From Candidatus Binatota bacterium (GTDB taxonomy: Bacteria; Desulfobacterota; Binatia; UBA1149; CAITLU01): a stretch of 64,000 bases of DNA. This document shows, piece after piece, positions 48,905 to 62,918 of the stretch. Every line of letters begins with the position of its first letter. Positions within the stretch are counted from its first letter, which is position 1. The notes below the pieces were generated by a model that was not told the DNA's origin, ran no database searches, and saw only the letters and a program-made list of their open reading frames with translations. A program made the translations under genes and the position numbers. The stretch spans positions 1,161 to 65,160 of the forward strand of contig JAJRWY010000312.1 in NCBI GenBank assembly GCA_024276575.1. Direction: 5' to 3'.

Positions 48905-49223
48905 TCCCGCGTTGTTGGTGCTGAGTACCACAGCCGACGAGGAGTCGGCACGGAAACTGTCGTCTGCGTTGGTCGAGGAAGGGCTGGCCGCATGCGTTAC
49001 CCGAGTTGCCGCAGCGTCCGTGTATCGTTGGGAAGGCAAGGTCGAGAGCGGGCCCGAATGTCTACTGCTCATAAAGACACTTGCGAGCAATTGGGAGCGG
49101 CTTGTCGAACGCCTAAAACAGTTGCACGCTTACGAAACCCCGGAGTTGATATCTTTCGAAGCGGCGAAAGTCGAGAGCGCTTATTTTTCTTGGCTGCTCA
49201 GTAGTTGCAGATCTTCTTCGTGA
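48879..49223 (+). CDS. cutA: Divalent-cation tolerance protein CutA
   Basis: CutA1 fold (LLVLSTTADEESARKLSSALVEEGLAACV...YRWEGKVE...YETPELI); 114 aa from MKVEK. Confidence 0.8.
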   Translation: MKVEKPQNDPALLVLSTTADEESARKLSSALVEEGLAACVTRVAAASVYRWEGKVESGPECLLLIKTLASNWERLVERLKQLHAYETPELISFEAAKVESAYFSWLLSSCRSSS

Positions 49224-50008
49224 TCTGCGGTGCCGGCGAGCGCCGATCCCGCGGGTTCTTGTCCCGGGATGAAGCTTTCGCGGACGATCAAAGTGTCGAA
49301 ACCGCGTGATTGTAATTGAGCAGACGCGGCGCGGGCTGCAGCCTTGTTTGCAAAAAGTCCCAAGCGCACCCGGTAGAAACGTGAGAGCAAGTCCGGGTCT
49401 TTTATGTAGAAAGCCGCATCGCCCGCGGTGTCCAGGCCGATTCCATCGATGAATGTTCGCGCGCGTCCGGGAAACTTGAAGGCGCCGATCTGCACCGAGA
49501 AAGCCTGCTCCGGCCAACTCGTAAGGCGTTCGTCGAGTACCTCGAGTTCGACTTCAGCGACTCCCTTTTCGAGTATCCCGAGCCGGATGGCGGCGGCACG
49601 CGAGATGTCAAGTATGCGTTCCCGTACGTAGGGCCCGCGGTCGTTCACGCGAACATCCACGCTGCGCCCGCTTGCTAGGTCCCGCACTCTTATCTTGGTG
49701 TCGAAGGGCAGTGTCCTGTGAGCTGCGGTCATAGCCTCGCGGTCGAAATATTCACCGTTGGCGGTCCGCCGCCCATGAAAGGCATCGCCGTACCAAGAGC
49801 ACAGCCCTTTCTGGGTGAGCGCGGGACGCGGCGGTGGGGGAGTTTGCTCGGCGGCGGCTTTCACGGGGAGGGTGGCTTGGGGAGCCGGCGTGGCCCGCAG
49901 CGGCTCTGCTGCCGGCGGTTTGCCCGCCGAGCAGGCGCTCAGGGTCAAAGCTGCCAGCGCTGCCGCGGTAGCGTTAGGAATGCGCTGCCATGATTCTACC
50001 GACAACAT
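49181..50008 (-). CDS. rlpA: Septal ring lytic transglycosylase RlpA family lipoprotein (DPBB plus SPOR domains)
   Basis: Lipoprotein signal LTLSACS, DPBB motif GLCSWYGDAFHGRRTANGEYF and a C-terminal SPOR-like FSVQIGAF...LQSRGFD region. The tool ORF adds a 51-aa leader. Confidence 0.8.
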   Translation of the reverse strand: MLSVESWQRIPNATAAALAALTLSACSAGKPPAAEPLRATPAPQATLPVKAAAEQTPPPPRPALTQKGLCSWYGDAFHGRRTANGEYFDREAMTAAHRTLPFDTKIRVRDLASGRSVDVRVNDRGPYVRERILDISRAAAIRLGILEKGVAEVELEVLDERLTSWPEQAFSVQIGAFKFPGRARTFIDGIGLDTAGDAAFYIKDPDLLSRFYRVRLGLFANKAAARAASAQLQSRGFDTLIVRESFIPGQEPAGSALAGTADHEEDLQLLSSQEK

Positions 50009-50182
50009 CGCGGTGCGAGTGTGGCTGAAATCTGCGAGATCACGCAAACGCACCCTGTGTAGCTTTCTTTCGCATAGGCACGCGATTGCCCGACCGCAGT
50101 GGCGGGCTAGCCCACGTTTACTAGCGGCGGCTGCTATGCTATCGATGCGAACAAGAGGCAAAAGGAGCAGGCGAGTAAGTAA

Positions 50183-50932
50183 ATGTCAGGTCACTCTAAG
50201 TGGAGTTCCATCAAGCACAAGAAGGCGGCCAACGATGCCAAGCGTGGCAAGCTGTTCACCAAGCTGATCAAGGAACTTACCATCGCGGCGCGATTGGGCG
50301 GTAGTGATGCCGACGCGAACCCCAGGCTGAGAACGGCGATCAATAACGCCCGTGCTCAGAGCATGCCCAACGACAACATCGAGCATGCGATCAAGAAGGG
50401 CGCCGGGGAACTCGAAGGCGCCGACTATGTGGAGGTTACCTACGAAGGTTACGGCGCCGGGGGGATGGCGGTGATGCTCGAGGCCTTGACCGACAACAAG
50501 AATCGCACAGTGGCCGACATCAGGCACCTTTTCAGCAAGCACGGCGGTAATCTAGGGGAGAATAATTGCGTGAGTTGGATGTTCGACCGGGTCGGCCAGA
50601 TTCGCGTTGCTGCCGAGGGAGTGGAGGAAGAGGATGTCTTTGAGATGGCGGTGGAAGCCGGGGCCGACGATGTAGCCGGCGAAGACGATTCCTTCGTGGT
50701 GACTACCGCCGTGGACCAACTTGAAAACGTGCGCTCGGCTCTAGAAGCGGGCGGACTTCGAATCGAGGCCGCCGAGATCGCGTTGGTTCCGCAAAACTTC
50801 GTCAAGCTGTCGGGGGGGGATGCAGCGAGAGCGCTGAAGCTCATCGACGCCCTGGAAGACAACGACGACGTCCAAAGAGTCTCGGCCAATTTCGAAATCG
50901 ACGACGAGGAACTCAAACGGCTTTCCGCTTGA
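50183..50932 (+). CDS. yebC: YebC/PmpR family DNA-binding transcriptional regulator
   Basis: MSGHSKWSSIKHKKAANDAKRGKLFTKL. Confidence 0.92.
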   Translation: MSGHSKWSSIKHKKAANDAKRGKLFTKLIKELTIAARLGGSDADANPRLRTAINNARAQSMPNDNIEHAIKKGAGELEGADYVEVTYEGYGAGGMAVMLEALTDNKNRTVADIRHLFSKHGGNLGENNCVSWMFDRVGQIRVAAEGVEEEDVFEMAVEAGADDVAGEDDSFVVTTAVDQLENVRSALEAGGLRIEAAEIALVPQNFVKLSGGDAARALKLIDALEDNDDVQRVSANFEIDDEELKRLSA

Positions 50933-51080
50933 GCCAGGAATCCTTTGACCAGATTGTCTCAGGCGCCTGCTTGGGGCCGGAGCCGGGCGCGAATCGTTTC
51001 GGTGGGCCGGCCGCTTGTTGGGCGGCCTTCTCGTTTGCGCGGAGTCGGCACGCTGCCGGCCCTCGTTGCCGGATTTCGCC

Positions 51081-51626
51081 ATGCGCATAATGGGCATTGA
51101 TCCGGGTACCATTATTACCGGCTGGGGAGTAGTCGAGGCCCAAGGCTCGCGTCTGACCTGCGTGTCTTCGGGCGTGCTGCGCGCCGGCCATGGTGAGATC
51201 GGTGACCGCCTAGCGCAAATCTATGCAGGGCTGGCTACTTTGATCGCCGAGTACCGGCCCGATGGTGTCGCTTTGGAACGGAACTTTCTGGCCAGGAACG
51301 TGCAGTCTGCTTTTCGTTTGGGTGAGGCCAGGGGGGTGGCGATGGCGGCGGTAGCCGCTGCGGGTTTGCCGCTGAACGAGTATGCCCCGATGAGTGTCAA
51401 GAAAACCGTAGTCGGCTATGGGCGTGCCGACAAATCTCAAGTGCAGGCCGGCGTGGCGAGATTGCTGGCACTCGACAGCTTGCCGCTCGAAGATGAGGCC
51501 GATGCGCTCGGCGTAGCACTTTGTTACGTTCTTAGCGGTGGTTTCGAGAGCAAGGTGCAGCAGGCGCTGGCTGCCGCGCCGGCGCCGCGGCGAAGACCCG
51601 TACGACGTAGACGGGGCGGGGGTTGA
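51081..51626 (+). CDS. ruvC: Crossover junction endodeoxyribonuclease RuvC
   Basis: MRIMGIDPGTIITGWGVV; acidic catalytic residues. Confidence 0.9.
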   Translation: MRIMGIDPGTIITGWGVVEAQGSRLTCVSSGVLRAGHGEIGDRLAQIYAGLATLIAEYRPDGVALERNFLARNVQSAFRLGEARGVAMAAVAAAGLPLNEYAPMSVKKTVVGYGRADKSQVQAGVARLLALDSLPLEDEADALGVALCYVLSGGFESKVQQALAAAPAPRRRPVRRRRGGG

Positions 51627-51632
51627 TTCAAG

Positions 51633-52208
51633 ATGATCGCGCGTCTCCGTGGAGAACTGGAGGAGAAGTGCCCTAACGAGGTGCTCATCGACGTTGCCGG
51701 CGTTGGTTATGGTGCTGCGATCTCCCTGAATACTTTCAACAAGCTTCCCGAGTGCGGAGAGGAAGTCTCTTTGTACGTGGTGACGAACTTGCGCGAAAAC
51801 GCGCTGGAATTGTTTGCTTTTGCCGATGGTGCAGAGCGGAGCCTATTTAATGTGTTACGTACAGTATCCGGGATAGGACCTCGATTGGCAATGGCTATTC
51901 TGTCCGGCATCGACAGTGATGAGTTTCCGCGGGTGGTCGCCGAGCGCGACCTTGCGCGCCTGGTGTCAATCTCTGGAGTCGGCCGCAAGACCGCCGAACG
52001 CATCCTCGTAGAGCTTACCGACAAGATGCCGGAGCCGGGTCCGGTCAAAAGCGAGAGCGGCCCGTCGGCCGATGCCGTCGCGGCGCTGTGCTCCTTGGGC
52101 TACAAGAGAGGGGAAGCGCTCAGAGCGGTAAGCGCGGTTCGCGCCGACGGTGGCGACGGCGGCGGGGTCGAGGAGTTGATACGCGGCGCCTTGGCTAGAC
52201 TGTCGTGA
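51633..52208 (+). CDS. ruvA: Holliday junction branch-migration protein RuvA
   Basis: MIARLRGEL...IDVAGVGY and helix-hairpin-helix motifs (ISGVGRKTAERIL). Confidence 0.92.
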   Translation: MIARLRGELEEKCPNEVLIDVAGVGYGAAISLNTFNKLPECGEEVSLYVVTNLRENALELFAFADGAERSLFNVLRTVSGIGPRLAMAILSGIDSDEFPRVVAERDLARLVSISGVGRKTAERILVELTDKMPEPGPVKSESGPSADAVAALCSLGYKRGEALRAVSAVRADGGDGGGVEELIRGALARLS

Positions 52209-52231
52209 GCACACTGCGTGGTTGTTGAAAG

Positions 52232-53266
52232 ATGCGAAGCAACGAGAATAGAGATGCTCTGAGCGAAGCTTCCGAAACGGATCCGGATTTTTCGCAAGAA
52301 CCGAGCCTTCGGCCGCAAACACTCGACAGTTACATCGGGCAGCGCCGCATCTGCGAGAATCTCGATATCGCGATACGGGCAGCTTCGCGGCGCAACGAGC
52401 CTCTCGACCACCTACTGCTCATCGGGCCGCCTGGTCTCGGCAAGACTTCGCTTGCCCACATCGTCGCGCGTGAGATGGGCGGCCGTGTGCATCAGAGTAG
52501 TGGCCCGGTAATCGAGAAAGCCGGTGATCTGGCGGCCATACTGACCTCGCTGGAGCGCGGCGATGTATTGTTCATCGACGAAATCCACCGCCTTGGTAAA
52601 GCCATAGAAGAGATACTTTACCCGGCGATGGAGGATTTTCGCATCGATTTGGTGATCGGAGAGGGGCCTTCGGCACGCTCGGTGTCCTTGAACTTGGCTA
52701 GGTTCACGCTGGCCGGTGCCACCACGCGCTCCGGTTTGCTCAGTGCTCCCTTGCGCTCGCGCTTCGGCAATACCTTCCGGCTCGATTTCTATGATGAGAA
52801 GGAACTCGCGGCTATCATCACACGCTCGGCGGCTTTGATGGAGGTAGAGATCGAGCAGGACGCCGCCCGCGAAGTGGCCTCGCGTTCGCGCGGCACGCCA
52901 CGCATCGCCAATCGCCTGTTGCGGCGCTTGCGCGACTTTGCGGAAGTTCGCGCCGCCGGGCGTATCGACCTCGAGGTAGCCCGGCAAGCGTTGGAAACCT
53001 TGGGGGTCGACGAAGCGGGCTTCGATACCATGGACCGTCGTTTGCTGTCGGTCATTGCAGAGAATTTCGAGGGTGGCCCGGTCGGGCTCGACACGCTTGC
53101 CGCTGCCGTAGGTGAAGATGCCAGCACCATCGAGGAAGTATACGAGCCCTATCTCATTCGCTGCGGGTATTTGCAGAAGACGCCGCGTGGCAGGGTCGCC
53201 ACGGCGCGCGCTTATGACCATCTGAAGCTCAACTCTCCCGTGCCACAGGAGAGTCTGTTCGAATAG
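52232..53266 (+). CDS. ruvB: Holliday junction branch-migration ATPase RuvB
   Basis: Walker [18 protein letters not shown], sensor motifs. Confidence 0.95.
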
Positions 53267-53278
53267 CATGCGCGGCGG

Positions 53279-55516
53279 TTGTTTATGAGCGGCGCACCTA
53301 GGCCGGACATCTCCATTTCGCGCGAGGAAAGGGCGCGCCGACGCCGTGAGGTTGCGGTGATTCTCGCGGCCGGTCTTGCGGTGGTGTTCTTTGCCGTGTG
53401 GGAAATCGGCCGGCCGGCTGGGCGTGGAGCCACCGGTAACGTTGTCTCCTTCCTACTGGTAAACCTCAACATAGTTCTGCTTCTAGTCGTGGCGTTCCTG
53501 GTTTTGCGAAACATCGTGAAGCTGGTGATTGACCGGCGCCGGCGTGTCCCGGGTAGCCATCTTCGCGGGCGGCTGGTCTTTGCTTTCGTTACCATTGCGC
53601 TATTCCCGGCGGGTTTGATGCTCGTCATTTCGTATCAATTCGTGACCAGCAACATCGATGATTGGCTCGACAGCGAGGTCGAGCAGTCGCTCGAAGGTGC
53701 CTGGGAACTGGCCCATACCTACTATCGGGATTCTGCGGATGCGGCGCTTGCGCATGCGCGGGCCCTGGCTGCGGAGGCTGTGGAGAAGCGGCTGCTGCAG
53801 CCGTCTTCACGGACGAAATTGCGAGAGTTGGTTCTCGAACACCAGCGCGCTTACAAGCTGGGAACCATCCAGATAGTCAACTCCTCAGGCGAACAGGTAC
53901 TGGCTTTGTTCAACGAATCCACTCCTACCGGGATGCCGCTATATCCGGACGCTGAATTGATGTCAGAGAACCTCGAAGGGCGTGAGGCTACCAAAGTAGA
54001 GGCTTACGGCGAAAGTGACGTGATCAGCGGTGCGGTGCCGATACTCGACAGTAAAGGAAAAGTGCTGGGTGCGGTGGTGGTTGATTATTTCGTTGAGCGC
54101 AGTATCCGGCGCTGGAGTGAAGACATACTGAAATCCTTCAGCGAGTTCCGCCAGCTAAAGCTCAGCAAACAGCCTTTCAAGAATCTCTACGCGATTACTC
54201 TTGCTCTGGCCGCGGTCGCGGTAGTGTTCTCGGCTACATGGCTGGGTATTTATATGGCCCGGGGGGTTACCGACCCCATTGGGCGGTTGGCGGAAGCTAC
54301 TGAACGGGTTGCCGGCGGTGACTGGGAGGTTCGGCTCGAAGAAGCAGGCGGTGACGAAGTCGGCATGCTGGTCAGTGCTTTCAACACCATGACTTCACAG
54401 CTCAAGGCAACCCACGATGATCTCGATGAGAGGCGCCGTTACATCGAGAATGTGCTCGGACATATCGAAGCGGGTGTCGTGTCCATCGATGAAGAGGGGC
54501 GCATCGGTACCGTGAACTCAGCCGCAGTGTCGTTGTTGGGCCTCGACGCTGAAGGGCTTGCGGGGCTAGCTGCGGTAGAGACGTTTCAGGAGGCCGGTTA
54601 CTCGGAAATGGCGTCGCTGTTGAAAGATTTGAGTGCCGGAGTCGTAGCTTCCGGCACCCGTATCAACGTCAAGCGGGAACAGGAAGGGCGGACGCTACTG
54701 GTTACTGCGACTGAGTTGAAGCGCGTGAGTGGTGAGCGGGCGGGCTTCGTTCTTTTTGTCGAAAACGTATCACAGATAGTCGAAGTTCAGAGGATGGAGG
54801 CCTGGCGCGAGGTTGCTAGGCGTATCGCCCATGAGATCAAGAATCCACTGACTCCCATCCAACTGTCGGCGCAAAGGCTGGGCAGGCGCTTGCGTTCACG
54901 GCTCGGCGGGGAAGACGCCGAGCTACTGGAGCGCAGCGTGGAAACGATCGTCTCTCAAGTAGACACATTGAAGCAGTTGGTCAACGAGTTCTCGCGCTTT
55001 GCGCAAAAGTCGGAAGGAGACAAGCGCCTACACGATTTGAACCAGTTGGTCGAGGAGACGATCCCTTTGTACAGCGAGTCGCGCCCTGACATCAAAGTGG
55101 AATTCTCCCGTGCCGAAGAGCTTCCGGCACTGATGTTGGACCGGCAGTCGGTAAAGCGCGTTCTGATCAATCTGCTCGATAATGCGGTGGCGGCTCTTTC
55201 GGCGGACGAGGCCGTGCGTGAAAGCGGCGTCGAGCCGCAAATAGAACTTCGGACCTCTTTTGATGAAAGAACCTCGCGCGTGGTTCTCGAAGTCGCGGAC
55301 AACGGCCCAGGAATCGCTGCCAAGGACAAACCGCGGGTATTCGAGCCGTACTTCTCGACCAAGGACGATGGGACCGGCCTCGGCCTGGCTATTGTTGCTT
55401 CGGTGGCTGCCGACCACCAAGCCTTCGTTCGAGTCAGGGACAACCATCCGCGAGGCAGCCGTTTCGTGATAGAATTTCCCATCGTGCCCAAGGAGAGAGA
55501 GGTCCGAGATGCCTGA
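53279..55516 (+). CDS. NtrY-like sensor histidine kinase (2 TM, HAMP, PAS, HisKA, HATPase)
   Basis: Two N-terminal TM helices, HAMP and PAS regions, H-box HEIKNPLTPIQLSAQRL, N-box LLDNAVAAL, G1 DNGPGI and G2 GTGLGLAIV. Confidence 0.85.
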   Translation: MFMSGAPRPDISISREERARRRREVAVILAAGLAVVFFAVWEIGRPAGRGATGNVVSFLLVNLNIVLLLVVAFLVLRNIVKLVIDRRRRVPGSHLRGRLVFAFVTIALFPAGLMLVISYQFVTSNIDDWLDSEVEQSLEGAWELAHTYYRDSADAALAHARALAAEAVEKRLLQPSSRTKLRELVLEHQRAYKLGTIQIVNSSGEQVLALFNESTPTGMPLYPDAELMSENLEGREATKVEAYGESDVISGAVPILDSKGKVLGAVVVDYFVERSIRRWSEDILKSFSEFRQLKLSKQPFKNLYAITLALAAVAVVFSATWLGIYMARGVTDPIGRLAEATERVAGGDWEVRLEEAGGDEVGMLVSAFNTMTSQLKATHDDLDERRRYIENVLGHIEAGVVSIDEEGRIGTVNSAAVSLLGLDAEGLAGLAAVETFQEAGYSEMASLLKDLSAGVVASGTRINVKREQEGRTLLVTATELKRVSGERAGFVLFVENVSQIVEVQRMEAWREVARRIAHEIKNPLTPIQLSAQRLGRRLRSRLGGEDAELLERSVETIVSQVDTLKQLVNEFSRFAQKSEGDKRLHDLNQLVEETIPLYSESRPDIKVEFSRAEELPALMLDRQSVKRVLINLLDNAVAALSADEAVRESGVEPQIELRTSFDERTSRVVLEVADNGPGIAAKDKPRVFEPYFSTKDDGTGLGLAIVASVAADHQAFVRVRDNHPRGSRFVIEFPIVPKEREVRDA

Positions 55517-56780
55517 GACGATTTTGCTTGTAGATGACGATGCCAAGGTTCGCGAATCGATACGTGGCGTTCTCGGAGATGAAGGCTATGAGGTCGTAAC
55601 TGCATCCAACGGCGTTCAGGCCATGGATGCGGTTGCGGTGCATAACCCCGATCTCATCTTGCTTGATTTGTGGATGCCGGAGATGGATGGCATCGAGTTC
55701 TTACAGCAGGCTGGGTCCGGGGACTCGGCGATTCCGGTGATCGTGATCTCGGGCCACGGCAACGTGGAAACGGCGGTCCGCGCGACCAAGCTTGGAGCCG
55801 TGGATTTCGTCGAGAAGCCGTTTTCCATCGACGGGCTTCTAGCGGCGGTAAACGGAGCCTTGAATCGTTTCTCCCCCGACGAAGGTGCCGCTAGCGTCGT
55901 GGCCGGGCAATTGCCTTCGGCCGGTGGCGCGACGGCTGGTGTCAGCCAGCGCACGTTGGCGCAAAGCGTGGTCGGTGGCGGACTCGGCTTACATAGCGGG
56001 GTGAGGACCGGATTGATCTTGCAGCCGATGCCGCCGGGGAGCGGGATAAGTTTTGCGAGTATAGCGGGCGAGGGCAAAGTGCTCGCACATGTGGACAACG
56101 TGGATTCCACCGGCTACGCGACCACACTGTTCGACAAGGGGACGGTTGCGCGAACGGTAGAACATCTCATGGCGACCCTGCACGCTTATGGGATCACCAA
56201 TCTGCTGGTGAAGATAGAAGGCGAAGTGCCGATTCTAGACGGCTCAGCGGCCGAACTCTGCCAGTTGATAGACTCGGTTGGTGTAGAAGACCAGCCCTCG
56301 GCCATCGCTCCCATAGTGATCGAGGAGGAAGTGCGCATAGACGCCGGTCCGGACGAATTCATCGTGATTCGTCCTCATGACGGTTTCGAAGTAACCTACG
56401 AACTTTCTTATCCGCCGCCGGTGGGGGAACAGAGTTACACATTTTGCTTCGAAGGAGCCGGGTCGTTTCGTTCGCAGATCGCTCCGGCGCGTACCTTCGG
56501 CTTTGTCGAGGAGATCCGCGCGTTGGAAGGAGCGGGGCTAGGCCAGGGAGGACAGCTGAGCAACTTTATACTGATCGGCGAGGGCAGGATCGTCAACACC
56601 GAATTACGCTTCCCCGAGGAACTCGCGCGCCACAAGATCCTTGATATCATGGGAGATTTCTATCTCCTCGGGGCACCGATACGAGGCTCGCTGCACGCGC
56701 GAAAAACCGGGCATTCGCAGAACATCGCGTTGATGCGATTGCTAAGCGAGGGCAGAGGGAGAAGCGCGTCGAGTCGTTGA
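55509..56780 (+). CDS. lpxC: Response-regulator receiver domain fused to UDP-3-O-acyl-N-acetylglucosamine deacetylase
   Basis: Receiver residues 1-120 carry all phospho-acceptor positions (LLVDDD, LLDLWMP, VISGHG, FVEKP). Residues ~135-423 are a complete LpxC with RTL...GLGLHSG, EHLMATLHAYGI, HKILDIMGDFYLLG and KTGHSQN zinc and catalytic motifs. It is a single uninterrupted ORF that overlaps the kinase stop by 8 nt. Confidence 0.8.
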   Translation: MPETILLVDDDAKVRESIRGVLGDEGYEVVTASNGVQAMDAVAVHNPDLILLDLWMPEMDGIEFLQQAGSGDSAIPVIVISGHGNVETAVRATKLGAVDFVEKPFSIDGLLAAVNGALNRFSPDEGAASVVAGQLPSAGGATAGVSQRTLAQSVVGGGLGLHSGVRTGLILQPMPPGSGISFASIAGEGKVLAHVDNVDSTGYATTLFDKGTVARTVEHLMATLHAYGITNLLVKIEGEVPILDGSAAELCQLIDSVGVEDQPSAIAPIVIEEEVRIDAGPDEFIVIRPHDGFEVTYELSYPPPVGEQSYTFCFEGAGSFRSQIAPARTFGFVEEIRALEGAGLGQGGQLSNFILIGEGRIVNTELRFPEELARHKILDIMGDFYLLGAPIRGSLHARKTGHSQNIALMRLLSEGRGRSASSR

Positions 56781-56838
56781 GTCTCGCCGGCGAGACTCAA
56801 CGTAGCCGCCCGTCGTGCGGCAAGCCTTAGCTGCATGT

Positions 56839-57639
56839 TTACTTGAGCCCTAGCAGGCGGGGTCTACCGAGGGGGCCGCTTAGACGGTAGCTGCGCCAGC
56901 CCTCTGTGTTCTCGGTGGCTTTGGGAAGCAGGCCGAGCAGGACCCGCGCTTTGGCCGAAGAGTCAGCGGCTCGCACCTTGAAATACAGATCTGTTTGGTA
57001 GCTACCGTCGTCCCTGCGCGAGATGTGGCCGCGGGTCAGATGCCATTGCAGGCCGGCGGCCCTAGCCTCTGCGGATTCGATCTCGAGCTTGCCGTTGCTC
57101 AACCGACCCTTGGCTGAAACCGCATCGAACTCCCATTCGCCGATGGCCATGCCCGCCTTGCTGATGCCGCGCCCGTCCGCGTTGGCGAGCGGCAGGTGCC
57201 CGCTCACGCTGCCATCATTTGCTTCGAGCTCCATACTGCCGTTTCCGTCCGTTACGTCGATTCGTGCGTTGAAGTCGCCGCTTAGAGAAAGAAACCCCAA
57301 GCGAACGCACTTGGCGGGGTCGCCGTCAAGCAAGCGCAGTTGGAAATCGTCGGGGCCCGTAAAGTTACCCTCGATCGACCCTCCGCAGTAATCGGTGTGG
57401 AAACCTCCGAACAGTCCCAGGTATGCCGACTGAAGGTTCAATTCATAACCGTCTTTGGCAAGCCGTAGCCCACCTACTCTATAACCGAAGGGAAACGCCG
57501 GCCGTGCCGAAAGCAGCGATACTTGAACACCGCGTGGTGAAAGGCCCGCACGCAGTACGCTGGCGAGAAGACGCTCGTGCGGAAAGGTGACGGCTGCGAA
57601 AAGCGCCAGCAGGGCCGCGAACACCAGCAAGCGTTTCAT
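56839..57639 (-). CDS. gspN: Type II secretion system protein N (GspN-like)
   Basis: Signal peptide and predicted periplasmic protein of 266 aa, sitting immediately downstream of gspM in the cluster. Confidence 0.5.
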   Translation of the reverse strand: MKRLLVFAALLALFAAVTFPHERLLASVLRAGLSPRGVQVSLLSARPAFPFGYRVGGLRLAKDGYELNLQSAYLGLFGGFHTDYCGGSIEGNFTGPDDFQLRLLDGDPAKCVRLGFLSLSGDFNARIDVTDGNGSMELEANDGSVSGHLPLANADGRGISKAGMAIGEWEFDAVSAKGRLSNGKLEIESAEARAAGLQWHLTRGHISRRDDGSYQTDLYFKVRAADSSAKARVLLGLLPKATENTEGWRSYRLSGPLGRPRLLGLK

Positions 57640-58193
57640 GTCTTGGACAGCGTTGCGGCCAGCAGTACCAGGTCGAAGCGATCGCGGTCGTCGTAGCGCT
57701 TCTTCATGTCGAGCCTTCGAACGTCGATCGGCCTTTCCGCGTTCTCGATGCGCTTGAGCAGTGCCACGATCTCGGCCAATGACACTTGAGACAGCTTGAT
57801 CTCGACGGTGCTCTCCAAAGTTCCATCCTCGAGTTCCCGGCGGCTAGGATTCATCGACGCTACGCTTTCGGCGCTGACGGCCGCCGCAGTGGCTTTGTCC
57901 ATGAAAGAGAATAGTGAGAAATTCTTCGCGTCTTTCTCCGCTCCGGGCTTGCGCGCGGTGGCACCGGATTGTGCGACTCTGATCTGGCCGGCGAGTATCT
58001 TCATCTCGGCTAGGTCTCTGCGTAAAGAGGCAATCTCGGCCTCTATGCGGCGGCGTCCGGCAGTCAGGGGTTGTATGACCAGCGAGTAGGCTACGACCGC
58101 GGCGACGATAGTGCCGAGTATTGCCAACAAGCGCTGTTCCCGGGGACTGAGACGGGCAAGAATCGCGCCCAGCTTGCGCAGAAGTTCGTTCAT
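57636..58193 (-). CDS. gspM: Type II secretion system protein M
   Basis: Bitopic 185-aa protein (N-terminal TM after a short cytoplasmic segment), 4-nt overlaps with both neighbouring genes, cluster position. Confidence 0.6.
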   Translation of the reverse strand: MNELLRKLGAILARLSPREQRLLAILGTIVAAVVAYSLVIQPLTAGRRRIEAEIASLRRDLAEMKILAGQIRVAQSGATARKPGAEKDAKNFSLFSFMDKATAAAVSAESVASMNPSRRELEDGTLESTVEIKLSQVSLAEIVALLKRIENAERPIDVRRLDMKKRYDDRDRFDLVLLAATLSKT

Positions 58194-59653
58194 CCCTTAG
58201 CGCCTCCACGGAGCGAAGCGGAGCCCAAGGGCTCGAGCAGAAGTTGGAATGCGACGCCGTTGCCGCCGGCTGCCGCGTGTACGTCTTTGACCTCCACTTC
58301 TCCGAAGTGGCCGCTGTCGATCAGCGCTTGTTGCAACAGAGTGACGGCTTCGAAGGAGGCCCCGTTTCCGTTGAGCCTTACATTGTTGCCGCTCACGTAG
58401 AATCCGTCGAACTCGACATCCACATCCTTTGGAACGGCTTGAGACATGAGTGCCAGCACCGTTAGGGGTGTTACTGAAGCGCCGCCCGGGGTTGCCCTTG
58501 CGCCGTTGAGTTCGCGCAGCCGCATCTCCATTTTCAGCCGTGCGCCCTTGCCCTGGCGCATTCCGGGCATTGCCTTGGCGAACACGGCCTCGCTTTGTTT
58601 GCGCAGTTCGGCTCTTTCGGAAGCAAGCCGTACATAGCTGACAGTCGAGGCGAGCAGGGCCAGGCCTAGCGCAGTACCCGCCCAGGGCAATAAAGGCCTG
58701 AGTTCGCTCGATAACTCCGACCAGCGGCCGAAGGTTCCCGAACGCCGTGGCGAAAAATCAAGTAGCGGGGAAGCGATGCCGCCGGTGGCGGCGAACAGTA
58801 GCCCGACCGCCGGCGCACAAGTTCTCCAACGAGCGTCGTCCACACCTTCTAGCGGGCAGCGCTCCGGCAGTTGTTCGATGCTGAAGTGATCGCCGTCACG
58901 ATTCAGATTCTGCGCGATGGCTGCCGCACGCGGCCCTCCCAGCACTATACGCCGGGGGCAGGTCTTCATGCTACGCAGCGCGTACAGCACGTTCCTCGAA
59001 AGTAGAGCGTCGTCACAGGCGCCTATAACGCGCAGGTCCAGCAGTGCTTCCCCACCGAGAACTCCGATGGTAGCGCCGTCGACGGATGCGTCGACAATGG
59101 CTACAGTGCCTTTGTCTTCGTAACTGATTGAGCGGCGATAAATCTCCAAGGTTGCACAAGGAGCCCAGACTATGCGGTCCGCGGACAGCCCCCACTCGGA
59201 AAGACGATTCCCGAGCTTCTCGATGGCCGAGTTCGCGGCCATGGCCGCCAGTACCGGACCTCTGCGGCGGGAGTCGGTAAAGTCGTAGGCGGTAGTGGCT
59301 TCATCGAGCGAAAGCGGGACATGCTCCTCGAGCGCCGGTCCGACGGCTTGTCCCAGCCTCCTGCGGTCGCGGAAGGGGAGGTCGAGGAAGCGGTACAGCG
59401 CTGTTTCAGCCGGCAAGGTGGCGATGACACGGTCCCACGAGTCTTTGCAGAACTCTGGTATCGCCGCGTTGCCGTCGAACTCGGCGTCGCTCAGGGAAAG
59501 CAGCTTGAACGAGCCGATGGTGGCTTCGGCTCTGGCTGCGCACAGCCTCCGGCTGCTCAGGTGTAGGGCAAGTATCTTGGTGCTCACTCCGCTTGCGTTC
59601 CTATGGAGCCGGCTTTCCGCCGGAGCCGAAAAGGCGCGGCCCGAGATCGGCAA
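58190..59653 (-). CDS. gspL: Type II secretion system protein L
   Basis: Cytoplasmic domain, central TM and periplasmic domain; the N-terminus ILALHLSS resembles GspL. The start probably lies downstream of the tool start, which overlaps gspK by 53 nt. Confidence 0.6.
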   Translation of the reverse strand: MPISGRAFSAPAESRLHRNASGVSTKILALHLSSRRLCAARAEATIGSFKLLSLSDAEFDGNAAIPEFCKDSWDRVIATLPAETALYRFLDLPFRDRRRLGQAVGPALEEHVPLSLDEATTAYDFTDSRRRGPVLAAMAANSAIEKLGNRLSEWGLSADRIVWAPCATLEIYRRSISYEDKGTVAIVDASVDGATIGVLGGEALLDLRVIGACDDALLSRNVLYALRSMKTCPRRIVLGGPRAAAIAQNLNRDGDHFSIEQLPERCPLEGVDDARWRTCAPAVGLLFAATGGIASPLLDFSPRRSGTFGRWSELSSELRPLLPWAGTALGLALLASTVSYVRLASERAELRKQSEAVFAKAMPGMRQGKGARLKMEMRLRELNGARATPGGASVTPLTVLALMSQAVPKDVDVEFDGFYVSGNNVRLNGNGASFEAVTLLQQALIDSGHFGEVEVKDVHAAAGGNGVAFQLLLEPLGSASLRGGAKG

Positions 59654-60650
59654 ACCGTGCCGGTGCCGAATCGTCGATGTCGGCTATGTTGGGCCCCCGC
59701 CTCGGCAGAAAATAGACTACATGTATTTCGTCCAAATCGCGATAAAGCACGGCCTCCACCGATTGGAATACGCCGTCAACTTCGCCGCTAGACAGCACTC
59801 GGAAGTAACTACTGCTGTATCGAAACATCTTGTCCAGCTTGCTCTTGCTGCGGAATGCGGTCTTCCAACCCTCGAGTTCGAGCAGCATCTGCGAGTTTCG
59901 TATCGGTGTTTGCTCGCGGTAGGCCAGGAGAGTGCCGACCAGCACACCGTCACGCAAGGCCGGGTCCAAGGCTTCGAGCACTGCGGCCGGCGCCGTATTG
60001 GGATTGATCTTGTCCTGGGTTTCCGGAAGCACCGTACACAGTGGGCGCAGGGCACTCAGGCGGTGAGTGTCGAATCCGCGGATGAGGGCGAGTTCGGCGA
60101 AGCTGCGCAAGGCGGAGTTTCTCGGTGGGTAAGGCACGCCGATACTTTGATAGTAGTCGCGCTCGGCGCCCACAGGATCGCTGCTTACCGCGTTGTTGCG
60201 GTCGAGCCAATCCGCCAACGCAGCGGCAAGCTCAGGTTCGAATTCGAGCTGGGCCAGAATCTCCATGAAACGCCGGCCGTTCGTCGAATGGACACCCGAA
60301 CCCAGTAGATTCAGGTTGAAGCGTGCGTTTTCGTCACTGATACGCAGGAAGATGGTGCCGTCCTCGCTCTGTATGGGAGGTAGCGGAGCGGCCCACAGTT
60401 CACTCAGTGCATCCACCGTCGACATGCGAGCGTCGAGCCTCAGTATCTCCGAGGCCAGTTCGATTCCCGATTCGGCCAGTAGCGCGGCACGCCTTGCCTT
60501 GAGCCAGTGGGCGGTGCGACGGTAGTCGACCTGGGCATCGTAGGTGAACTCGATCACCAGCAAGGTCAGTAGCGACATTGCCACCAATGTCATCAGCAGT
60601 GCGATCCCACGCTGGCTCCTGTTCGCGGCCGCCCCGCAGCAGCGTGTCAT
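59601..60650 (-). CDS. gspK: Type II secretion system minor pseudopilin K
   Basis: N-terminus RGIALLMTLVAMSLLTLLVIEF (prepilin-like hydrophobic segment without the conserved Glu5) and a large periplasmic domain. Confidence 0.7.
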   Translation of the reverse strand: MTRCCGAAANRSQRGIALLMTLVAMSLLTLLVIEFTYDAQVDYRRTAHWLKARRAALLAESGIELASEILRLDARMSTVDALSELWAAPLPPIQSEDGTIFLRISDENARFNLNLLGSGVHSTNGRRFMEILAQLEFEPELAAALADWLDRNNAVSSDPVGAERDYYQSIGVPYPPRNSALRSFAELALIRGFDTHRLSALRPLCTVLPETQDKINPNTAPAAVLEALDPALRDGVLVGTLLAYREQTPIRNSQMLLELEGWKTAFRSKSKLDKMFRYSSSYFRVLSSGEVDGVFQSVEAVLYRDLDEIHVVYFLPRRGPNIADIDDSAPARFADLGPRLFGSGGKPAP

Positions 60651-61357
60651 CGCGTTCCCGTTTCCGCAGCCAGCGGCAGCAGTACCGCAGAGGTCAACTC
60701 TACTGCGGGACCTTCTTCCGCCGTTACCGCAACGGTAGTTTCGACCAGGGCCGGTGCAATATCTTTGTCGGCTCCGGGGCCTACCGAATCCCACTGCTCG
60801 AGCCACCGCTTGCGGTTGTAGAAACGAAGACTGAGTTCCGTTACCGAATCATCGAGCAACACACCCGGTGTCTCCTCAAAATCCACTTCTTCCCGCAACG
60901 GAGGCCGGATTTCGTAGCGCCATAGTTGGGTCCGGTCTTGAATTCTATAGACGACGCGGACCTGGTCGCCCCTGGCCGGACCGGCCCAGGACGCCTCGAT
61001 AGGAGCTTCGGGCGAAGGCACACCGCGTGCCGAGAGGCAGGTAAAATCCAGTACAGTGGCGCTATCGGAAGATAGTTCGAAGCGGTCCGGACCTGGGTAG
61101 AAGAATCGTTTGAGATCCCTGTTGTAATCCTGGGTCATGAAAGAAGCCCGCAGGTCTCTTTCGATGATGTCGATCAACGTACGTGCCCTCGAGTAGGCTT
61201 CGCTACGTTGGCCGACGTATCTGCGCGTGGAAACCGTGCGTGTGAAGGTGCCGTAGAGTCCGGCCGCGAGTAGTGCGAAGATCGCCATGGCTACGGTGAG
61301 TTCGAGCAAGGTCATGCCCCGTTGCCGCTGCTCGGCGCTGTAGGCTACGGCAGCCAT
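60647..61357 (-). CDS. gspJ: Type II secretion system minor pseudopilin J
   Basis: Prepilin-type N-terminus RQRGMTLLELTVAMAIFALL. Confidence 0.7.
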   Translation of the reverse strand: MAAVAYSAEQRQRGMTLLELTVAMAIFALLAAGLYGTFTRTVSTRRYVGQRSEAYSRARTLIDIIERDLRASFMTQDYNRDLKRFFYPGPDRFELSSDSATVLDFTCLSARGVPSPEAPIEASWAGPARGDQVRVVYRIQDRTQLWRYEIRPPLREEVDFEETPGVLLDDSVTELSLRFYNRKRWLEQWDSVGPGADKDIAPALVETTVAVTAEEGPAVELTSAVLLPLAAETGTR

Positions 61358-61767
61358 CAATAGGACTGTTGCCTCATCACAACGGCCATGGTCGCCAGCA
61401 CTTGCGGGTCGCCGCTTCTCGATACACTTACCCGCACGCGCCGTAGCGTTTCGATGGCAGTGGGCATGACTTCGCGTGTCCATACGAAATCTTCACTGCC
61501 GGCTCCTCCGTAGCGAAGGTCCGAGGTCCCGAAGAGATCCTTGTCGCTGCTGAAGCGCCCGTGTTCAATACCGAGTTCCGGATACTCGTCTACTCGCGTC
61601 ATTGTGATCAAATGAGAGGCCAGCAAGCCGGCGCGGGTCAAGTCCAGTGTTTCGGCACTGAGCCTTATGTTGCGAGCGTGCAAGCCCAGCAGGCTTACGA
61701 TTGCGATTCCCAACAGCGCGGTTGCGATCAGAACCTCGAGCAGCGTAAACCCACGGCGATCAGCCAT
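61357..61767 (-). CDS. gspI: Type II secretion system minor pseudopilin I
   Basis: Prepilin-type N-terminus RRGFTLLEVLIATALLGIAIVSL; 136 aa. Confidence 0.75.
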   Translation of the reverse strand: MADRRGFTLLEVLIATALLGIAIVSLLGLHARNIRLSAETLDLTRAGLLASHLITMTRVDEYPELGIEHGRFSSDKDLFGTSDLRYGGAGSEDFVWTREVMPTAIETLRRVRVSVSRSGDPQVLATMAVVMRQQSY

Positions 61768-62344
61768 TGCCGTTCTCCAGGCCGGAGACTGTCACTTTCC
61801 CGTTCATCATGTTTATCGCGATGTGTTTGCGTTCACCGTTATCGGCCACCACGTCGAAGCTCCACTCGCCGAAGCCGCCTTCGGGTAGGAAGTAGAGATC
61901 GGCCAAGCCGCTATAGCTCGTCCCTTCCGCACCGGCGAAAGAGTCGAATTCGACCCCCGCCGGGAACTGCAGCGGTTCTGAGTATGGGTCCCATACTTGA
62001 CGAAATCCAGGATCCTCGCCGACGCTGGAGTCGCTATCTGCCGGCTCGGCGGAAGCCGTCCGGTCCTGTTGCCCGGTTTGCTCGAAAGGAAGGAATACAC
62101 TTACCGTATAGAAGTCGCGATCGAGATCCGCCCGCAGCCTATAGACCCGGCCGCGAAGCGCCGCCTCGTCGTAGAGATAAGAGATCTGTGCAGCTAGGCG
62201 CCGGGTGGTGGACTTGAGCCGCGAAGAACCGAGTTCCGGAAAACGCGGCGCGACCACCGACAAAAGAATGCCGATTATCACGATGACTAGGGTCACCTCT
62301 ATCAGGGTAAACCCCGCTCGTGGGTTACGGTTACATGCGGCCAT
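61760..62344 (-). CDS. gspH: Type II secretion system minor pseudopilin H
   Basis: Prepilin-type N-terminus AGFTLIEVTLVIVIIGILLSV. Confidence 0.7.
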   Translation of the reverse strand: MAACNRNPRAGFTLIEVTLVIVIIGILLSVVAPRFPELGSSRLKSTTRRLAAQISYLYDEAALRGRVYRLRADLDRDFYTVSVFLPFEQTGQQDRTASAEPADSDSSVGEDPGFRQVWDPYSEPLQFPAGVEFDSFAGAEGTSYSGLADLYFLPEGGFGEWSFDVVADNGERKHIAINMMNGKVTVSGLENGNG

Positions 62345-62403
62345 ACCGGCTTTTTTCGATTCGTGATTGAGCGGCCGCGGGCCTGGCACTGAACTATCCT
62401 TGG

Positions 62404-62859
62404 CTAGAAATCTCGCGAGTCGATATCCGCGTCGAAATCTTCGCCCCCTTCTTCGCCGTCGGCACCGAGACTTCTGAGGACGTAAGTCTTTCCGTCACTT
62501 GCGAACAAGAATTCACCACCCCAGGGGTCGATGGGCACCCGCTCCATATAGCCGCCTTTGCGCCAGTTACGCGGCAGTGGCGCGATTTCCGGTTCGGTCA
62601 CCAAGGCTTCGAGCCCCTGGGCCGTGGTCGGGTATATGCCCGAGTCCAGCTTGTACATTTGCAGGCCTTCTTCCAGCGCGCGTATGTCGGCTTGCGCCTT
62701 TACCACCCTGGCTTCATCGGTCCGGCTTATGAAGCGAGGCGCAGCCAGAGATATAAGGAGTCCGAGAATCAGTACGACCACCAGGATCTCAATGAGCGTG
62801 AAGCCCGCTTCGCCTGTACGGCGGCCAGACCCGAACGGTAGCAACGTCTTTTTGTCCAT
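62404..62859 (-). CDS. gspG: Type II secretion system major pseudopilin G
   Basis: GFTLIEILVVVLILGLLISLAAPRF and a conserved GspG body (KAQADIRALEEGLQMYKLDSGIYPTTAQGLEAL); start at MDKK. Confidence 0.85.
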   Translation of the reverse strand: MDKKTLLPFGSGRRTGEAGFTLIEILVVVLILGLLISLAAPRFISRTDEARVVKAQADIRALEEGLQMYKLDSGIYPTTAQGLEALVTEPEIAPLPRNWRKGGYMERVPIDPWGGEFLFASDGKTYVLRSLGADGEEGGEDFDADIDSRDF

Positions 62860-62918
62860 GCGGCAAAAACCCCGGCGACAGGAAAATCTTGTGTAGCAAA
62901 AAAACACGATGGTAAATC

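What the first reader, a model, noticed from the sequence alone, without database searches (positions are those of the whole stretch)
55509..56780. Receiver domain fused to LpxC: candidate phosphorylation control of the committed step of lipid A synthesis
A single 423-aa ORF joins an NtrC/NtrX-type receiver, with all phospho-acceptor positions intact (DD...D...S...K), to a complete LpxC deacetylase with all zinc and catalytic motifs (EH, HKxLDxxGD, GH). LpxC levels are normally controlled post-translationally (FtsH/LapB in enterobacteria). A receiver-LpxC fusion would place that step under direct two-component control. A LapB/HemY-like TPR membrane protein is also encoded in this window (40421-41641).
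Basis: seen in the sequence. Interest (0 to 1): 0.75.

Follow-up and report, generated by a model that had tools for sequence, protein, structure and literature searches.

The report
Response regulator fused to LpxC enzyme
One gene joins a phosphorylation-sensing receiver domain to LpxC, the enzyme that commits a cell to making lipid A, and sits just after its likely sensor kinase; the fusion belongs to a large family in several bacterial phyla that I could not find described in the literature, and it suggests direct signal control of outer-membrane synthesis.

Summary
ORF 55509-56780 (+) encodes 423 aa: a receiver domain (res 5-115), a disordered linker of about 27 aa, and a complete LpxC (res 147-412) that scores above NCBI's lpxC equivalog cutoff.

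- **Not an artefact.** At least 195 independent fusion genes were seen. In 120 aligned fusions, all phospho-acceptor residues and all LpxC zinc and catalytic residues are essentially invariant.
- **Kinase partner.** An NtrY-type histidine kinase lies directly upstream, and its stop codon overlaps the fusion's start codon. This pairing recurs in 33 of 87 related loci.
- **New finding.** Relatives in Nitrospinota and some Desulfobacterota carry a longer form: receiver, degenerate sigma-54 AAA+ domain, sometimes an HTH, then LpxC. That is a whole NtrX-like regulator fused to LpxC. The window's protein is the short form of this family.
- **Link to published work.** NtrYX represses lpxC transcription in alphaproteobacteria, and two recent reviews of LpxC regulation do not mention a receiver fusion.
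- **Most likely mechanism (inferred).** Phosphorylation of Asp53 by the NtrY-like kinase tunes LpxC output after translation.
- **Not tested.** Biochemistry, the direction of the effect, and whether this is the genome's only lpxC.
- **LapB hint.** It fails: the TPR protein has no rubredoxin domain.

The parts
53279..55516 (+). NtrY-like sensor histidine kinase, 745 aa. It has N-terminal hydrophobic segments (res 22-124 and 299-327) around an extracytoplasmic Cache-like stretch, then HAMP, PAS, HisKA (H-box His518, codon 54830-54832) and HATPase_c. It is the presumed cognate kinase.
   Evidence: Pfam: NtrY_N 25.7 bits (cutoff 23.2), HAMP, PAS, HisKA, HATPase_c. Hydropathy and H-box position. 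Homologous kinases lie directly upstream of the fusion in 33 of 87 loci.
55509..55516 (+). 8-nt overlap (ATGCCTGA) between the kinase stop codon and the fusion start codon. This fits co-transcription and translational coupling.
   Evidence: Sequence.
55509..56780 (+). The complete receiver-LpxC fusion ORF, 423 aa.
   Evidence: An exact match exists in the public protein collection as P0001 (source NCBI, 69,691-bp contig).
55521..55853 (+). Receiver (REC) domain, res 5-115, NtrX-like. Acidic pocket D9/D10, acceptor D53 (55665-55667), S81, aromatic switch F100, K103-P104.
   Evidence: best solved-structure match for this part: 4d6x, deposited as 'bacterial regulatory, Fis family protein', E=8e-25. 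D9, D10, D53, K103 and P104 are 120/120 conserved; S/T81 is 118/120; F/Y100 is 120/120.
55860..55940 (+). Flexible inter-domain linker, about res 118-144, rich in A/G/S/P. Its length and sequence vary among homologues.
   Evidence: alignment of linkers. AlphaFold2 pLDDT is below 50 for res 121-140.
55947..56744 (+). LpxC deacetylase domain, res 147-412. E218-H219 (56160-56165), T329, H375-K376-D379-D383 (56631-56657), H402 (56712-56714). The tail after the last catalytic His is short.
   Evidence: Foldseek against PDB LpxC gives target TM-scores of 0.78-0.86. The tail after TGH has a median of 17 aa.
51015..53266 (+). ruvC-ruvA-ruvB, tightly packed upstream on the same strand (12-nt gap before the kinase). 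This is conserved synteny and possibly one operon with the kinase and the fusion.
   Evidence: Pfam. The same order is seen in L001, L004, L005, L006 and L007.
56779..56798 (.). Perfect 20-nt palindrome GAGTCTCGCCGGCGAGACTC overlapping the stop codon, between convergent genes. It may be a transcription stop signal; this was not verified.
   Evidence: Sequence. It was not called by the terminator scan because there is no T-run.

Best explanation
The ORF encodes a genuine two-domain response regulator whose output domain is the lipid A committed-step enzyme LpxC. Its partner is the NtrY-like membrane histidine kinase encoded immediately upstream.

The protein is the short form of a large family of NtrX-LpxC fusions. 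The long form is receiver, degenerate AAA+ domain, sometimes an HTH, then LpxC. The short form has lost the AAA+/HTH part.

Proposed mechanism:
1. The kinase senses an envelope or redox cue through its extracytoplasmic and PAS modules (inferred).
2. It phosphorylates Asp53 of the receiver (inferred).
3. The S81/F100 switch changes the alpha4-beta5-alpha5 face of the receiver (inferred).
4. That change alters LpxC output after translation (inferred).

Step 4 could work by relieving or imposing intramolecular occlusion through the flexible linker, as in CheB, or by receiver-driven dimerisation. The direction of the effect is unknown. By analogy with alphaproteobacteria, where loss of NtrYX raises lpxC expression and LPS, the phosphorylated state may lower flux.

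Shown here: the architecture, conservation of both active sites, kinase adjacency, co-evolution of the two domains, and the NtrX ancestry. Inferred: phosphotransfer, the effect on catalysis, and the physiological signal.
For: - One ORF with both domains and a complete LpxC above the equivalog cutoff.
- LpxC fold confirmed by AlphaFold2 (pLDDT 81.6, pTM 0.79) and Foldseek.
- All 120 aligned fusions keep the receiver residues D9, D10, D53, K103 and P104, S/T81 (118/120) and F/Y100. They also keep LpxC E218, H219, T329, H375, K376, D379, D383 and H402.
- The kinase stop overlaps the fusion start.
- An NtrY_N-HAMP-PAS-HisKA-HATPase kinase lies directly upstream in all four lineages looked up by protein (the one short contig, L003, has no room for it) and in 33 of 87 loci by tblastn.
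- Receiver and LpxC distances correlate (r=0.85; Mantel 0 of 999 permutations), so the two domains have been inherited as one unit.
- Long relatives are receiver + Sigma54_activat + AAA_lid (+HTH_8) + LpxC. Their N-terminal roughly 440 aa align to NCBIfam NtrX as the top hit, end to end in two of the three tested (249-269 bits).
- In the long forms Walker B and GAFTGA are degenerate, as in atypical EBPs such as NtrX (PMC6158489).
- In the 1.84-billion-protein representative search, the roughly 48 best LpxC clusters are almost all extended at the N-terminus. Stand-alone LpxCs appear only below about 46% identity.
- Published biology links the same two-component system to lpxC. A ΔntrYX mutant of R. 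sphaeroides has 8.8-fold more lpxC mRNA and more LPS (PMC7240162; reviewed in PMC12444477).
- In D. vulgaris, response regulator DVU2934 has lpxC as its single target (PMC3333781).
Against: - There is no biochemical evidence of phosphotransfer or of any effect on deacetylase activity.
- In Acidobacteriota and Nitrospinota loci no kinase lies within 5 kb, so the partner is unknown there.
- The linker is disordered and variable.
- Only nine LpxC positions are specific to the fusion clade, so no dedicated receiver-docking surface is evident.
- In long forms about 300 residues separate the receiver from LpxC, which argues against a single simple occlusion mechanism across the family.
- I could not establish that this is the only lpxC in the genome.
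Confidence: 0.6

Rival explanations
1. The receiver controls how much LpxC there is, or where it is, rather than its catalysis. Phosphorylation would expose or hide a degron or adaptor surface for an AAA+ protease (as with the RssB, CpdR and CtrA type of logic), or drive membrane recruitment. This would replace the FtsH/LapB route used in enterobacteria.
For: In the best-studied bacteria LpxC is regulated mainly by proteolysis (PMC12444477, PMC13333357). The fusion lacks an E. coli-like C-terminal extension: the tail after the catalytic His has a median of 17 aa against 40 in E. coli. No bona fide LapB was found in the window. A flexible linker and few fusion-specific LpxC surface residues fit a mechanism that needs no fixed receiver-LpxC interface.
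Against: No protease or adaptor gene is conserved next to the fusion. The best receiver matches are NtrX, NtrC and FixJ, not RssB or CpdR. Nothing here tests protein turnover.
Confidence: 0.17
2. The fusion is an accessory, condition-specific LpxC paralogue, and a separate stand-alone housekeeping lpxC exists elsewhere in the genome. Two-component control would then add a boost or an alternative flux rather than govern the essential step.
For: The gene is not in a classical lipid A or dcw context; it sits between ruvCAB-kinase and a type II secretion cluster. Only 64 kb of the genome could be inspected, and it holds no other lpxC. Whole genomes could not be read with these tools.
Against: It is the form in all 120 best Nitrospinota-type hits. 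Catalytic residues are invariant, and LpxC domain distances track receiver distances as for a vertically inherited core gene. Apparent stand-alone members inside the clade are frameshifted long-read contigs, and the only second LpxC hit near a fusion is a decayed fragment.
Confidence: 0.25
3. The receiver is a phosphorylation-independent structural or dimerisation module (a pseudo-receiver), and the adjacent kinase signals to another regulator.
For: Many fusion loci have no kinase nearby. Phosphorylation-independent receivers do exist in other families (own knowledge).
Against: The full phosphorylation set (DD, D, S/T, F/Y, K-P) is conserved in 118-120 of 120 sequences that average only 46% receiver identity, which is not expected for a pseudo-receiver. 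The kinase overlaps the fusion's start codon, and tblastn finds no other receiver in the 64-kb window.
Confidence: 0.06
4. The fusion is an artefact of sequencing or assembly: a lost stop codon or frameshift between a response-regulator gene and lpxC.
For: None beyond the generic risk in metagenome assemblies.
Against: The same architecture occurs in 120 of 120 best protein clusters from NCBI, JGI, ENA and Logan assemblies and in 75 of 80 species-representative genomes. There is no gene-start signal or stop codon in the linker. Where frames are broken, the contigs are error-prone long-read assemblies that also show other split genes.
Confidence: 0.01

Closest known systems
NtrY/NtrX two-component system (alphaproteobacteria; B. 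abortus NtrX named as an atypical EBP in PMC6158489)
   Same: The receiver's best family match is NtrX. The best solved-structure matches for that part are 4d6x and 5m7n. The upstream kinase has the NtrY_N-HAMP-PAS-HisKA-HATPase layout. Long-form relatives contain a whole NtrX-like module with a degenerate AAA+ domain that lacks GAFTGA. Functionally, NtrYX represses lpxC and lowers LPS in R. sphaeroides and Caulobacter (PMC7240162, PMC12444477).
   Different: Classical NtrX is a DNA-binding repressor or activator that acts on transcription, and its effect on lpxC is indirect in R. sphaeroides (PMC7240162). The window's protein has no AAA+ or HTH domain; LpxC itself is the output domain. Scores are far below the NtrX equivalog cutoff (128 bits for the window's receiver and 249-269 bits for long forms, against 600).
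CheB-type enzymatic response regulators (receiver, flexible linker, catalytic domain)
   Same: The plan is the same: an N-terminal receiver, a disordered linker of about 25-45 aa, and a C-terminal enzyme. CheB is the textbook case in which the unphosphorylated receiver inhibits the enzyme and phosphorylation relieves that inhibition (own knowledge).
   Different: The output domain is unrelated: a zinc amidase of lipid A synthesis rather than a methylesterase. No evidence here shows that the receiver occludes the active site. The family also has long forms with about 300 extra residues between the domains.
FtsH/LapB/YejM proteolytic control of LpxC (enterobacteria)
   Same: It targets the same enzyme and the same regulatory problem: matching lipid A flux to envelope state after translation (PMC12444477, PMC13333357).
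   Different: The mechanism is a protease-adaptor system acting on a C-terminal degron of a stand-alone LpxC. The fusion has a short tail. The TPR protein in the window lacks LapB's rubredoxin domain and matches no LapB model.
Transcriptional control of lpxC by response regulator DVU2934 in Desulfovibrio vulgaris
   Same: It is a two-component regulator dedicated to lpxC in a 'deltaproteobacterial' lineage, and lpxC is adjacent to the orthologous regulator operon in Syntrophobacter fumaroxidans (PMC3333781). It is a possible evolutionary precursor of a gene fusion.
   Different: The proteins are separate and regulation is at the promoter. Orthology between DVU2934 and the fused receiver or NtrX-like module was not tested.
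LpxC-FabZ bifunctional proteins (NCBIfam NF009667)
   Same: This is the other known LpxC fusion architecture. Examples appear as C-terminally extended hits.
   Different: The extension is C-terminal and is a second biosynthetic enzyme, not a signalling domain. The window protein scores 181 bits against a cutoff of 465 and has no FabZ part.

Membership tests
LpxC, UDP-3-O-acyl-GlcNAc deacetylase (PF03331 / TIGR00325) | Profile match above the curated thresholds over the whole domain | tested here: met
   PF03331 260.6 bits (cutoff 27), profile positions 1-266 of 268. TIGR00325 equivalog 228.1 bits (cutoff 187.25).
LpxC, UDP-3-O-acyl-GlcNAc deacetylase (PF03331 / TIGR00325) | Zinc ligands (E. 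coli H79, H238, D242) and catalytic or substrate residues (E78, H265, T191, K239, D246) | tested here: met
   H219, H375, D379; E218, H402, T329, K376, D383. They are conserved in 118-120 of 120 fusions, and the exceptions are alignment gaps.
LpxC, UDP-3-O-acyl-GlcNAc deacetylase (PF03331 / TIGR00325) | Two-domain LpxC fold | tested here: met
   The AlphaFold2 model (pLDDT 81.6) matches P. aeruginosa, E. coli and A. aeolicus LpxC structures: target TM-score 0.78-0.86 over 272-282 aligned columns.
LpxC, UDP-3-O-acyl-GlcNAc deacetylase (PF03331 / TIGR00325) | Deacetylase activity, and being the genome's lipid A committed-step enzyme (sole copy) | not testable with these tools
Only the 64-kb window (no second lpxC) and flanks of 10 kb or less around homologues could be read.
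Response regulator receiver (PF00072) | Profile match plus the phospho-acceptor set: acidic pair, acceptor Asp, S/T, aromatic switch, Lys-Pro | tested here: met
   108.9 bits (cutoff 30.2). D9, D10, D53, S81, F100 and K103-P104 are conserved across 120 fusions.
Response regulator receiver (PF00072) | A cognate histidine kinase encoded with it | tested here: met
   The kinase at 53279-55516 overlaps the start codon. The pairing is conserved in 33 of 87 loci. It is not met in Acidobacteriota and Nitrospinota relatives.
Response regulator receiver (PF00072) | Actual phosphorylation of the acceptor Asp | not testable with these tools
   This needs biochemistry.
NtrX (NCBIfam NF051870; receiver, atypical AAA+, HTH) | Receiver most similar to NtrX and paired with an NtrY-type kinase | tested here: met
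   NtrX is the top NCBIfam hit for the receiver (128 bits); the top solved-structure hit for that part is 4d6x. The kinase hits NtrY_N at 25.7 bits against a cutoff of 23.2.
NtrX (NCBIfam NF051870; receiver, atypical AAA+, HTH) | Central AAA+ domain, C-terminal HTH_8 DNA-binding domain, and a score above the equivalog cutoff | tested here: not met
   The window protein has neither domain and scores 128 bits against 600. Long-form relatives have a degenerate AAA+ domain, sometimes with HTH_8, and score 249-269 bits. The window protein is therefore derived from an NtrX-like regulator but is not a member of the NtrX family.
CheB-like autoinhibited enzymatic response regulator (mechanistic class) | N-terminal receiver tethered by a flexible linker to a C-terminal catalytic domain | tested here: met
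CheB-like autoinhibited enzymatic response regulator (mechanistic class) | The unphosphorylated receiver packs on and blocks the active site | tested here: inconclusive
   A pTM of 0.79 hints at a preferred domain arrangement, but no PAE or coordinates were available. Only nine fusion-specific conserved LpxC positions were found.
   An N-terminal hydrophobic region and TPRs are present. LapA_dom scores 21.7 bits (cutoff 28) and HemY_N 20.9 bits (cutoff 31). No LapB model hit was found, and there is no C-terminal CxxC...CxxC motif.

The most novel reading that the evidence does not exclude
The fused protein is the only LpxC in these organisms, and the NtrY-like kinase directly switches lipid A synthesis by phosphorylating the enzyme's own receiver domain. 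This would be a mode of LpxC control distinct from the mechanisms treated in the two reviews I read (FtsH/LapB proteolysis and transcriptional control). It would operate across Binatia, Desulfobacterota/Myxococcota, Acidobacteriota and Nitrospinota, a phylum that includes the ocean's main nitrite oxidisers. It would also imply that the original job of the NtrYX system was envelope and LPS homeostasis, with the transcriptional NtrX of alphaproteobacteria being a derived form.
Probability: 0.4. Interest if true: 0.8.

Novelty: new variant of a known kind. Interest (0 to 1): 0.68.

Why it matters
[quoted passage not shown] Too much or too little of it is toxic, and how bacteria outside the Proteobacteria balance it is largely unknown (PMC12444477).

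A receiver wired directly to LpxC would be the shortest possible path from an envelope signal to outer-membrane lipid flux. It could be tested with one purified protein.

The family also gives 'Rosetta stone' evidence that NtrYX and LpxC belong to one functional module. That could explain why loss of NtrYX changes lpxC expression and LPS levels in alphaproteobacteria.

Because the long form appears universal in Nitrospinota, and the short form is widespread in soil and sediment phyla, the mechanism would apply to abundant environmental bacteria.

Public annotation currently hides all of this under the plain name 'UDP-3-O-acyl-N-acetylglucosamine deacetylase'.

Tried and rejected
1. **Second lpxC in the same genome.** tblastn over the window found none. 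A search with the nearest true stand-alone LpxC (P0177) returned only Firmicutes and Proteobacteria relatives and told me nothing about co-occurrence. The question stays open.
2. **Naming the source organism.** P0001 is not in the gene-position index, and its cluster carries no name.
3. **Apparent stand-alone LpxCs inside the fusion clade.** P0151 lies on a long-read contig with split ruvB and split kinase genes, so it is an indel artefact. L026, L039, L073, L038 and L043 have the receiver just upstream in another frame.
4. **L047 'second LpxC'.** It is a decayed C-terminal fragment with an in-frame stop and mutated H/K/D residues.
5. **Looking for a receiver-docking surface.** I compared 199 fusion LpxC domains with 86 stand-alone LpxCs. 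Only nine positions were fusion-specific, which is too few to define an interface.
6. **Promoter and terminator scan of 50000-57200.** The counts were no higher than in shuffled sequence.
7. **AFDB fold search for named full-length homologues.** The library was unavailable.
8. **Galperin's 2006 response-regulator census.** The paper is not held.
9. **Literature searches.** I combined LpxC with receiver, response regulator, CheY-like, output domain, fusion, and the taxa involved. None describes this architecture.
10. **LapB reading of ORF 40421-41641.** Rejected.

Full report
**Observation.** The window holds one uninterrupted ORF at 55509-56780 (+), 423 aa.
- Pfam finds a receiver domain at res 5-115 (E=2e-31) and a full-length LpxC domain at res 147-412 (E=2e-77, profile positions 1-266 of 268).
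- NCBIfam's lpxC equivalog model scores 228 bits against a cutoff of 187. The best model for the N-terminal part is NtrX.
- Alignment to solved P. aeruginosa LpxC runs the full length.

| Role | Window residues | E. coli residues |
|---|---|---|
| Zinc ligands | H219, H375, D379 | H79, H238, D242 |
| Catalytic and substrate residues | E218, H402, T329, K376, D383 | E78, H265, T191, K239, D246 |

- The receiver carries D9-D10, acceptor D53 (LLDLWMP), S81, F100 and K103-P104.
- An AlphaFold2 model built on a 41-sequence alignment has pLDDT 81.6 and pTM 0.79. Its linker (res 121-140) is disordered. The C-terminal part superposes on LpxC crystal structures with target TM-scores of 0.78-0.86.

**The fusion is not an artefact and not a one-off.**
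- All 120 best clusters in the 5.8-billion-protein collection carry both Pfam domains. They are 57-70% identical, 417-447 aa long, and come from NCBI, JGI, ENA and Logan assemblies. Where named, they are called only 'UDP-3-O-acyl-N-acetylglucosamine deacetylase'.
- I scanned one genome per GTDB species with two motifs typical of this LpxC clade.
- Of the best 80 loci, 75 have a receiver in the same open frame as LpxC. The other five have it just upstream in another frame. At least some such cases sit on error-prone long-read contigs.
- The MAG labels cover Binatia, Myxococcales, Thermodesulfobacteriota/Syntrophia/Desulfomonile, Acidobacteriota (Thermoanaerobaculia, Holophagae), Nitrospinota and Nitrospirae.
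- In the 1.84-billion representative library there are 1336 LpxC clusters at E<1e-30. The roughly 48 closest to the query (above 200 bits) are almost all extended at the N-terminus. Stand-alone LpxCs of 270-320 aa start only below about 46% identity.
- Across 120 aligned fusions the receiver's phosphorylation residues and LpxC's catalytic residues are essentially invariant, although mean identity is only 46% for the receiver and 54% for LpxC.
- Distances in the two domains correlate at r=0.85 (Mantel 0 of 999 permutations). The fusion has therefore been inherited as one unit, with both activities under selection.

**The kinase.**
- The preceding ORF (53279-55516) is a 745-aa membrane histidine kinase with NtrY_N, HAMP, PAS, HisKA (H518) and HATPase_c.
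- Its stop codon overlaps the fusion's ATG (ATGCCTGA). tblastn finds no other receiver in the 64-kb window.
- The order ruvC-ruvA-ruvB-kinase-fusion, followed by a convergent type II secretion cluster, recurs in L001, L004 and L005, and (on shorter contigs) in L006 and L007. The most distant short-form homologue examined (L002) also has the kinase upstream.
- By tblastn, an NtrY-like kinase lies directly upstream in 33 of 87 loci.
- In Acidobacteriota and Nitrospinota loci no kinase lies within 5 kb.

**A longer form reveals the ancestry.**
- Twenty of the 80 genome loci have 270-346 extra residues between the receiver and LpxC.
- Pfam identifies these residues as a sigma-54 interaction AAA+ domain with its lid, and in one case an HTH_8.
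- NCBIfam's NtrX model is the top hit for the N-terminal roughly 440 aa of all three long forms tested, and it aligns end to end in two of them (249-269 bits, below the cutoff of 600).
- Walker A is kept, but the Walker B acidic pair and the GAFTGA loop are lost, and the HTH is deleted in several lineages. This degenerate state matches what is described for atypical enhancer-binding proteins such as Brucella NtrX (PMC6158489).
- The long form is the only form among the 120 best Nitrospinota-type hits, including clusters with hundreds of marine members. There it sits in a conserved rlpA-greA-trmB-[fusion]-purN-lolA-rseP context.
- In a neighbour-joining tree of LpxC domains, the fusion clade is separated from the single stand-alone outgroup (E. 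coli) by a long branch. Short forms nest among long forms in the Desulfobacterota/Nitrospinota part. This suggests repeated loss of the AAA+/HTH segment (no bootstrap, so only suggestive).
- The window's protein is thus the minimal version of an NtrX-LpxC fusion, and NtrY-like kinases accompany both versions.

**How it most likely works.** What every family member shares is a phosphorylatable receiver and an active LpxC. The simplest reading is that Asp53 phosphorylation changes LpxC output after translation (confidence about 0.6).
- The linker is variable and disordered. This resembles CheB-type regulators, in which a tethered receiver inhibits the enzyme until it is phosphorylated. Receiver-driven dimerisation is equally possible and would also work in the long forms.
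- The direction of the effect is unknown. In R. sphaeroides, deleting ntrYX raises lpxC mRNA 8.8-fold and raises LPS (PMC7240162). The analogous logic would be that the phosphorylated state restrains flux.

Rival explanations:
- Phosphorylation-controlled turnover or localisation. This is plausible because proteolysis is the usual way to control LpxC and the fusion lacks an E. coli-type tail.
- An accessory paralogue alongside a housekeeping lpxC. This was not excluded because whole genomes could not be read.
- A phosphorylation-independent receiver. This is unlikely given the conservation.
- An artefact. This is excluded.

**Comparison with what is known.**
- The protein is a member of the LpxC family and of the receiver superfamily by every sequence and fold criterion tested.
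- It is not a member of NtrX, because it has no AAA+ or HTH domain, but it derives from an NtrX-like regulator.
- Response regulators with enzymatic outputs are a known class.
- I found no description of LpxC as an output domain. Nine of the ten full-text searches, which paired LpxC or enzymatic output domains with receiver, fusion, output-domain or taxon terms, found nothing.
- The 2025 and 2026 JBC reviews of lipid A and LpxC regulation contain none of the words receiver, response regulator or fusion.
- The closest published biology is transcriptional. NtrYX represses lpxC in alphaproteobacteria (PMC12444477, PMC7240162). In D. vulgaris, regulator DVU2934 has lpxC as its single target, and lpxC sits next to the orthologous operon in S. 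fumaroxidans (PMC3333781).
- The architecture is visible in precomputed Pfam annotations, so it may be listed in domain-architecture databases or in literature I could not search.

**The LapB remark.** ORF 40421-41641 (-) is a TPR membrane protein with sub-threshold LapA_dom and HemY_N hits and no LapB model hit. It has no C-terminal rubredoxin motif, which is a defining LapB feature (PMC13333357). It lies 14 kb away beside rsfS-nadD-proAB. It gives no support for a LapB-type pathway here.

**Verdict.** I rate it a new variant of a known kind, with interest 0.68. The two decisive unknowns are whether it is the sole lpxC and whether phosphorylation changes LpxC activity or level.

Noticed in passing
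L062 3651-5828; L069 3612-5837; L089 10001-12172; also L015, L027, L046, L048, L049, L052, L057, L059, L060, L063, L066, L071, L072, L082, L084, L085: Long-form relatives are receiver + degenerate sigma-54 AAA+ (Walker B and GAFTGA lost) + optional HTH_8 + LpxC, about 700-740 aa. This is a whole NtrX-like regulator fused to LpxC. It is the only form among the 120 best Nitrospinota-type hits, in a conserved rlpA-greA-trmB-[fusion]-purN-lolA-rseP context with no kinase nearby.
   Followed up: yes
L047 3717-4670: About 1 kb downstream of a Thermoanaerobaculia receiver-LpxC gene lies a relic of the C-terminal third of LpxC. It has an in-frame stop and mutated catalytic His/Lys/Asp (RCRNLDTIGS). 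It looks like a decayed duplicate.
   Followed up: partly
window 56779-56798: A perfect 20-nt palindrome, GAGTCTCGCCGGCGAGACTC, overlaps the fusion's stop codon between convergent genes. There is no T-run, so the terminator scan did not call it.
   Followed up: no
window 40421-41641 (-): A TPR membrane protein with weak, sub-threshold LapA_dom and HemY_N similarity and no rubredoxin domain, next to rsfS-nadD-proA-proB-obg. It is not LapB, and its function is unknown.
   Followed up: partly
window 37789-39198 and 39300-40436 (+): Two adjacent ArsA/GET3-type ATPases whose best NCBIfam matches are the mycobacterial BagA and BagB models (111 and 286 bits, both below cutoff).
   Followed up: no
window 56839-63971 (-): A type II secretion cluster (F, G, K, L-like and M, plus an unassigned 266-aa ORF at 56839-57639) converges on the fusion gene. 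The same arrangement is seen in L001, L004 and L005; the shorter contigs L006 and L007 show only unassigned ORFs at that position. No functional link is evident.
   Followed up: partly
L088 (contig_25414); L026, L039, L073, L038, L043: Apparent stand-alone or out-of-frame LpxC genes inside the fusion clade. L088 is a long-read contig on which neighbouring genes (ruvB, the kinase) are also split, which points to indel errors; the other five loci were not checked for split neighbours.
   Followed up: partly
L015 (JAIWHJ010000348.1) and L025 (CAZGUU010000404.1): Short contigs carrying the fusion are labelled 'Promethearchaeota archaeon' and 'Enterobacteriaceae bacterium'. These labels are probably binning or labelling errors, because their LpxC domains nest within the bacterial fusion clade.
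   Followed up: no
window 49181-50161 (-): An RlpA-like lytic transglycosylase (DPBB_1 + SPOR) lies a few genes upstream of the kinase-fusion pair. An RlpA-like gene also lies near the fusion in Nitrospinaceae (L069, L089) and in L001. This is a recurring cell-envelope neighbour.
   Followed up: no
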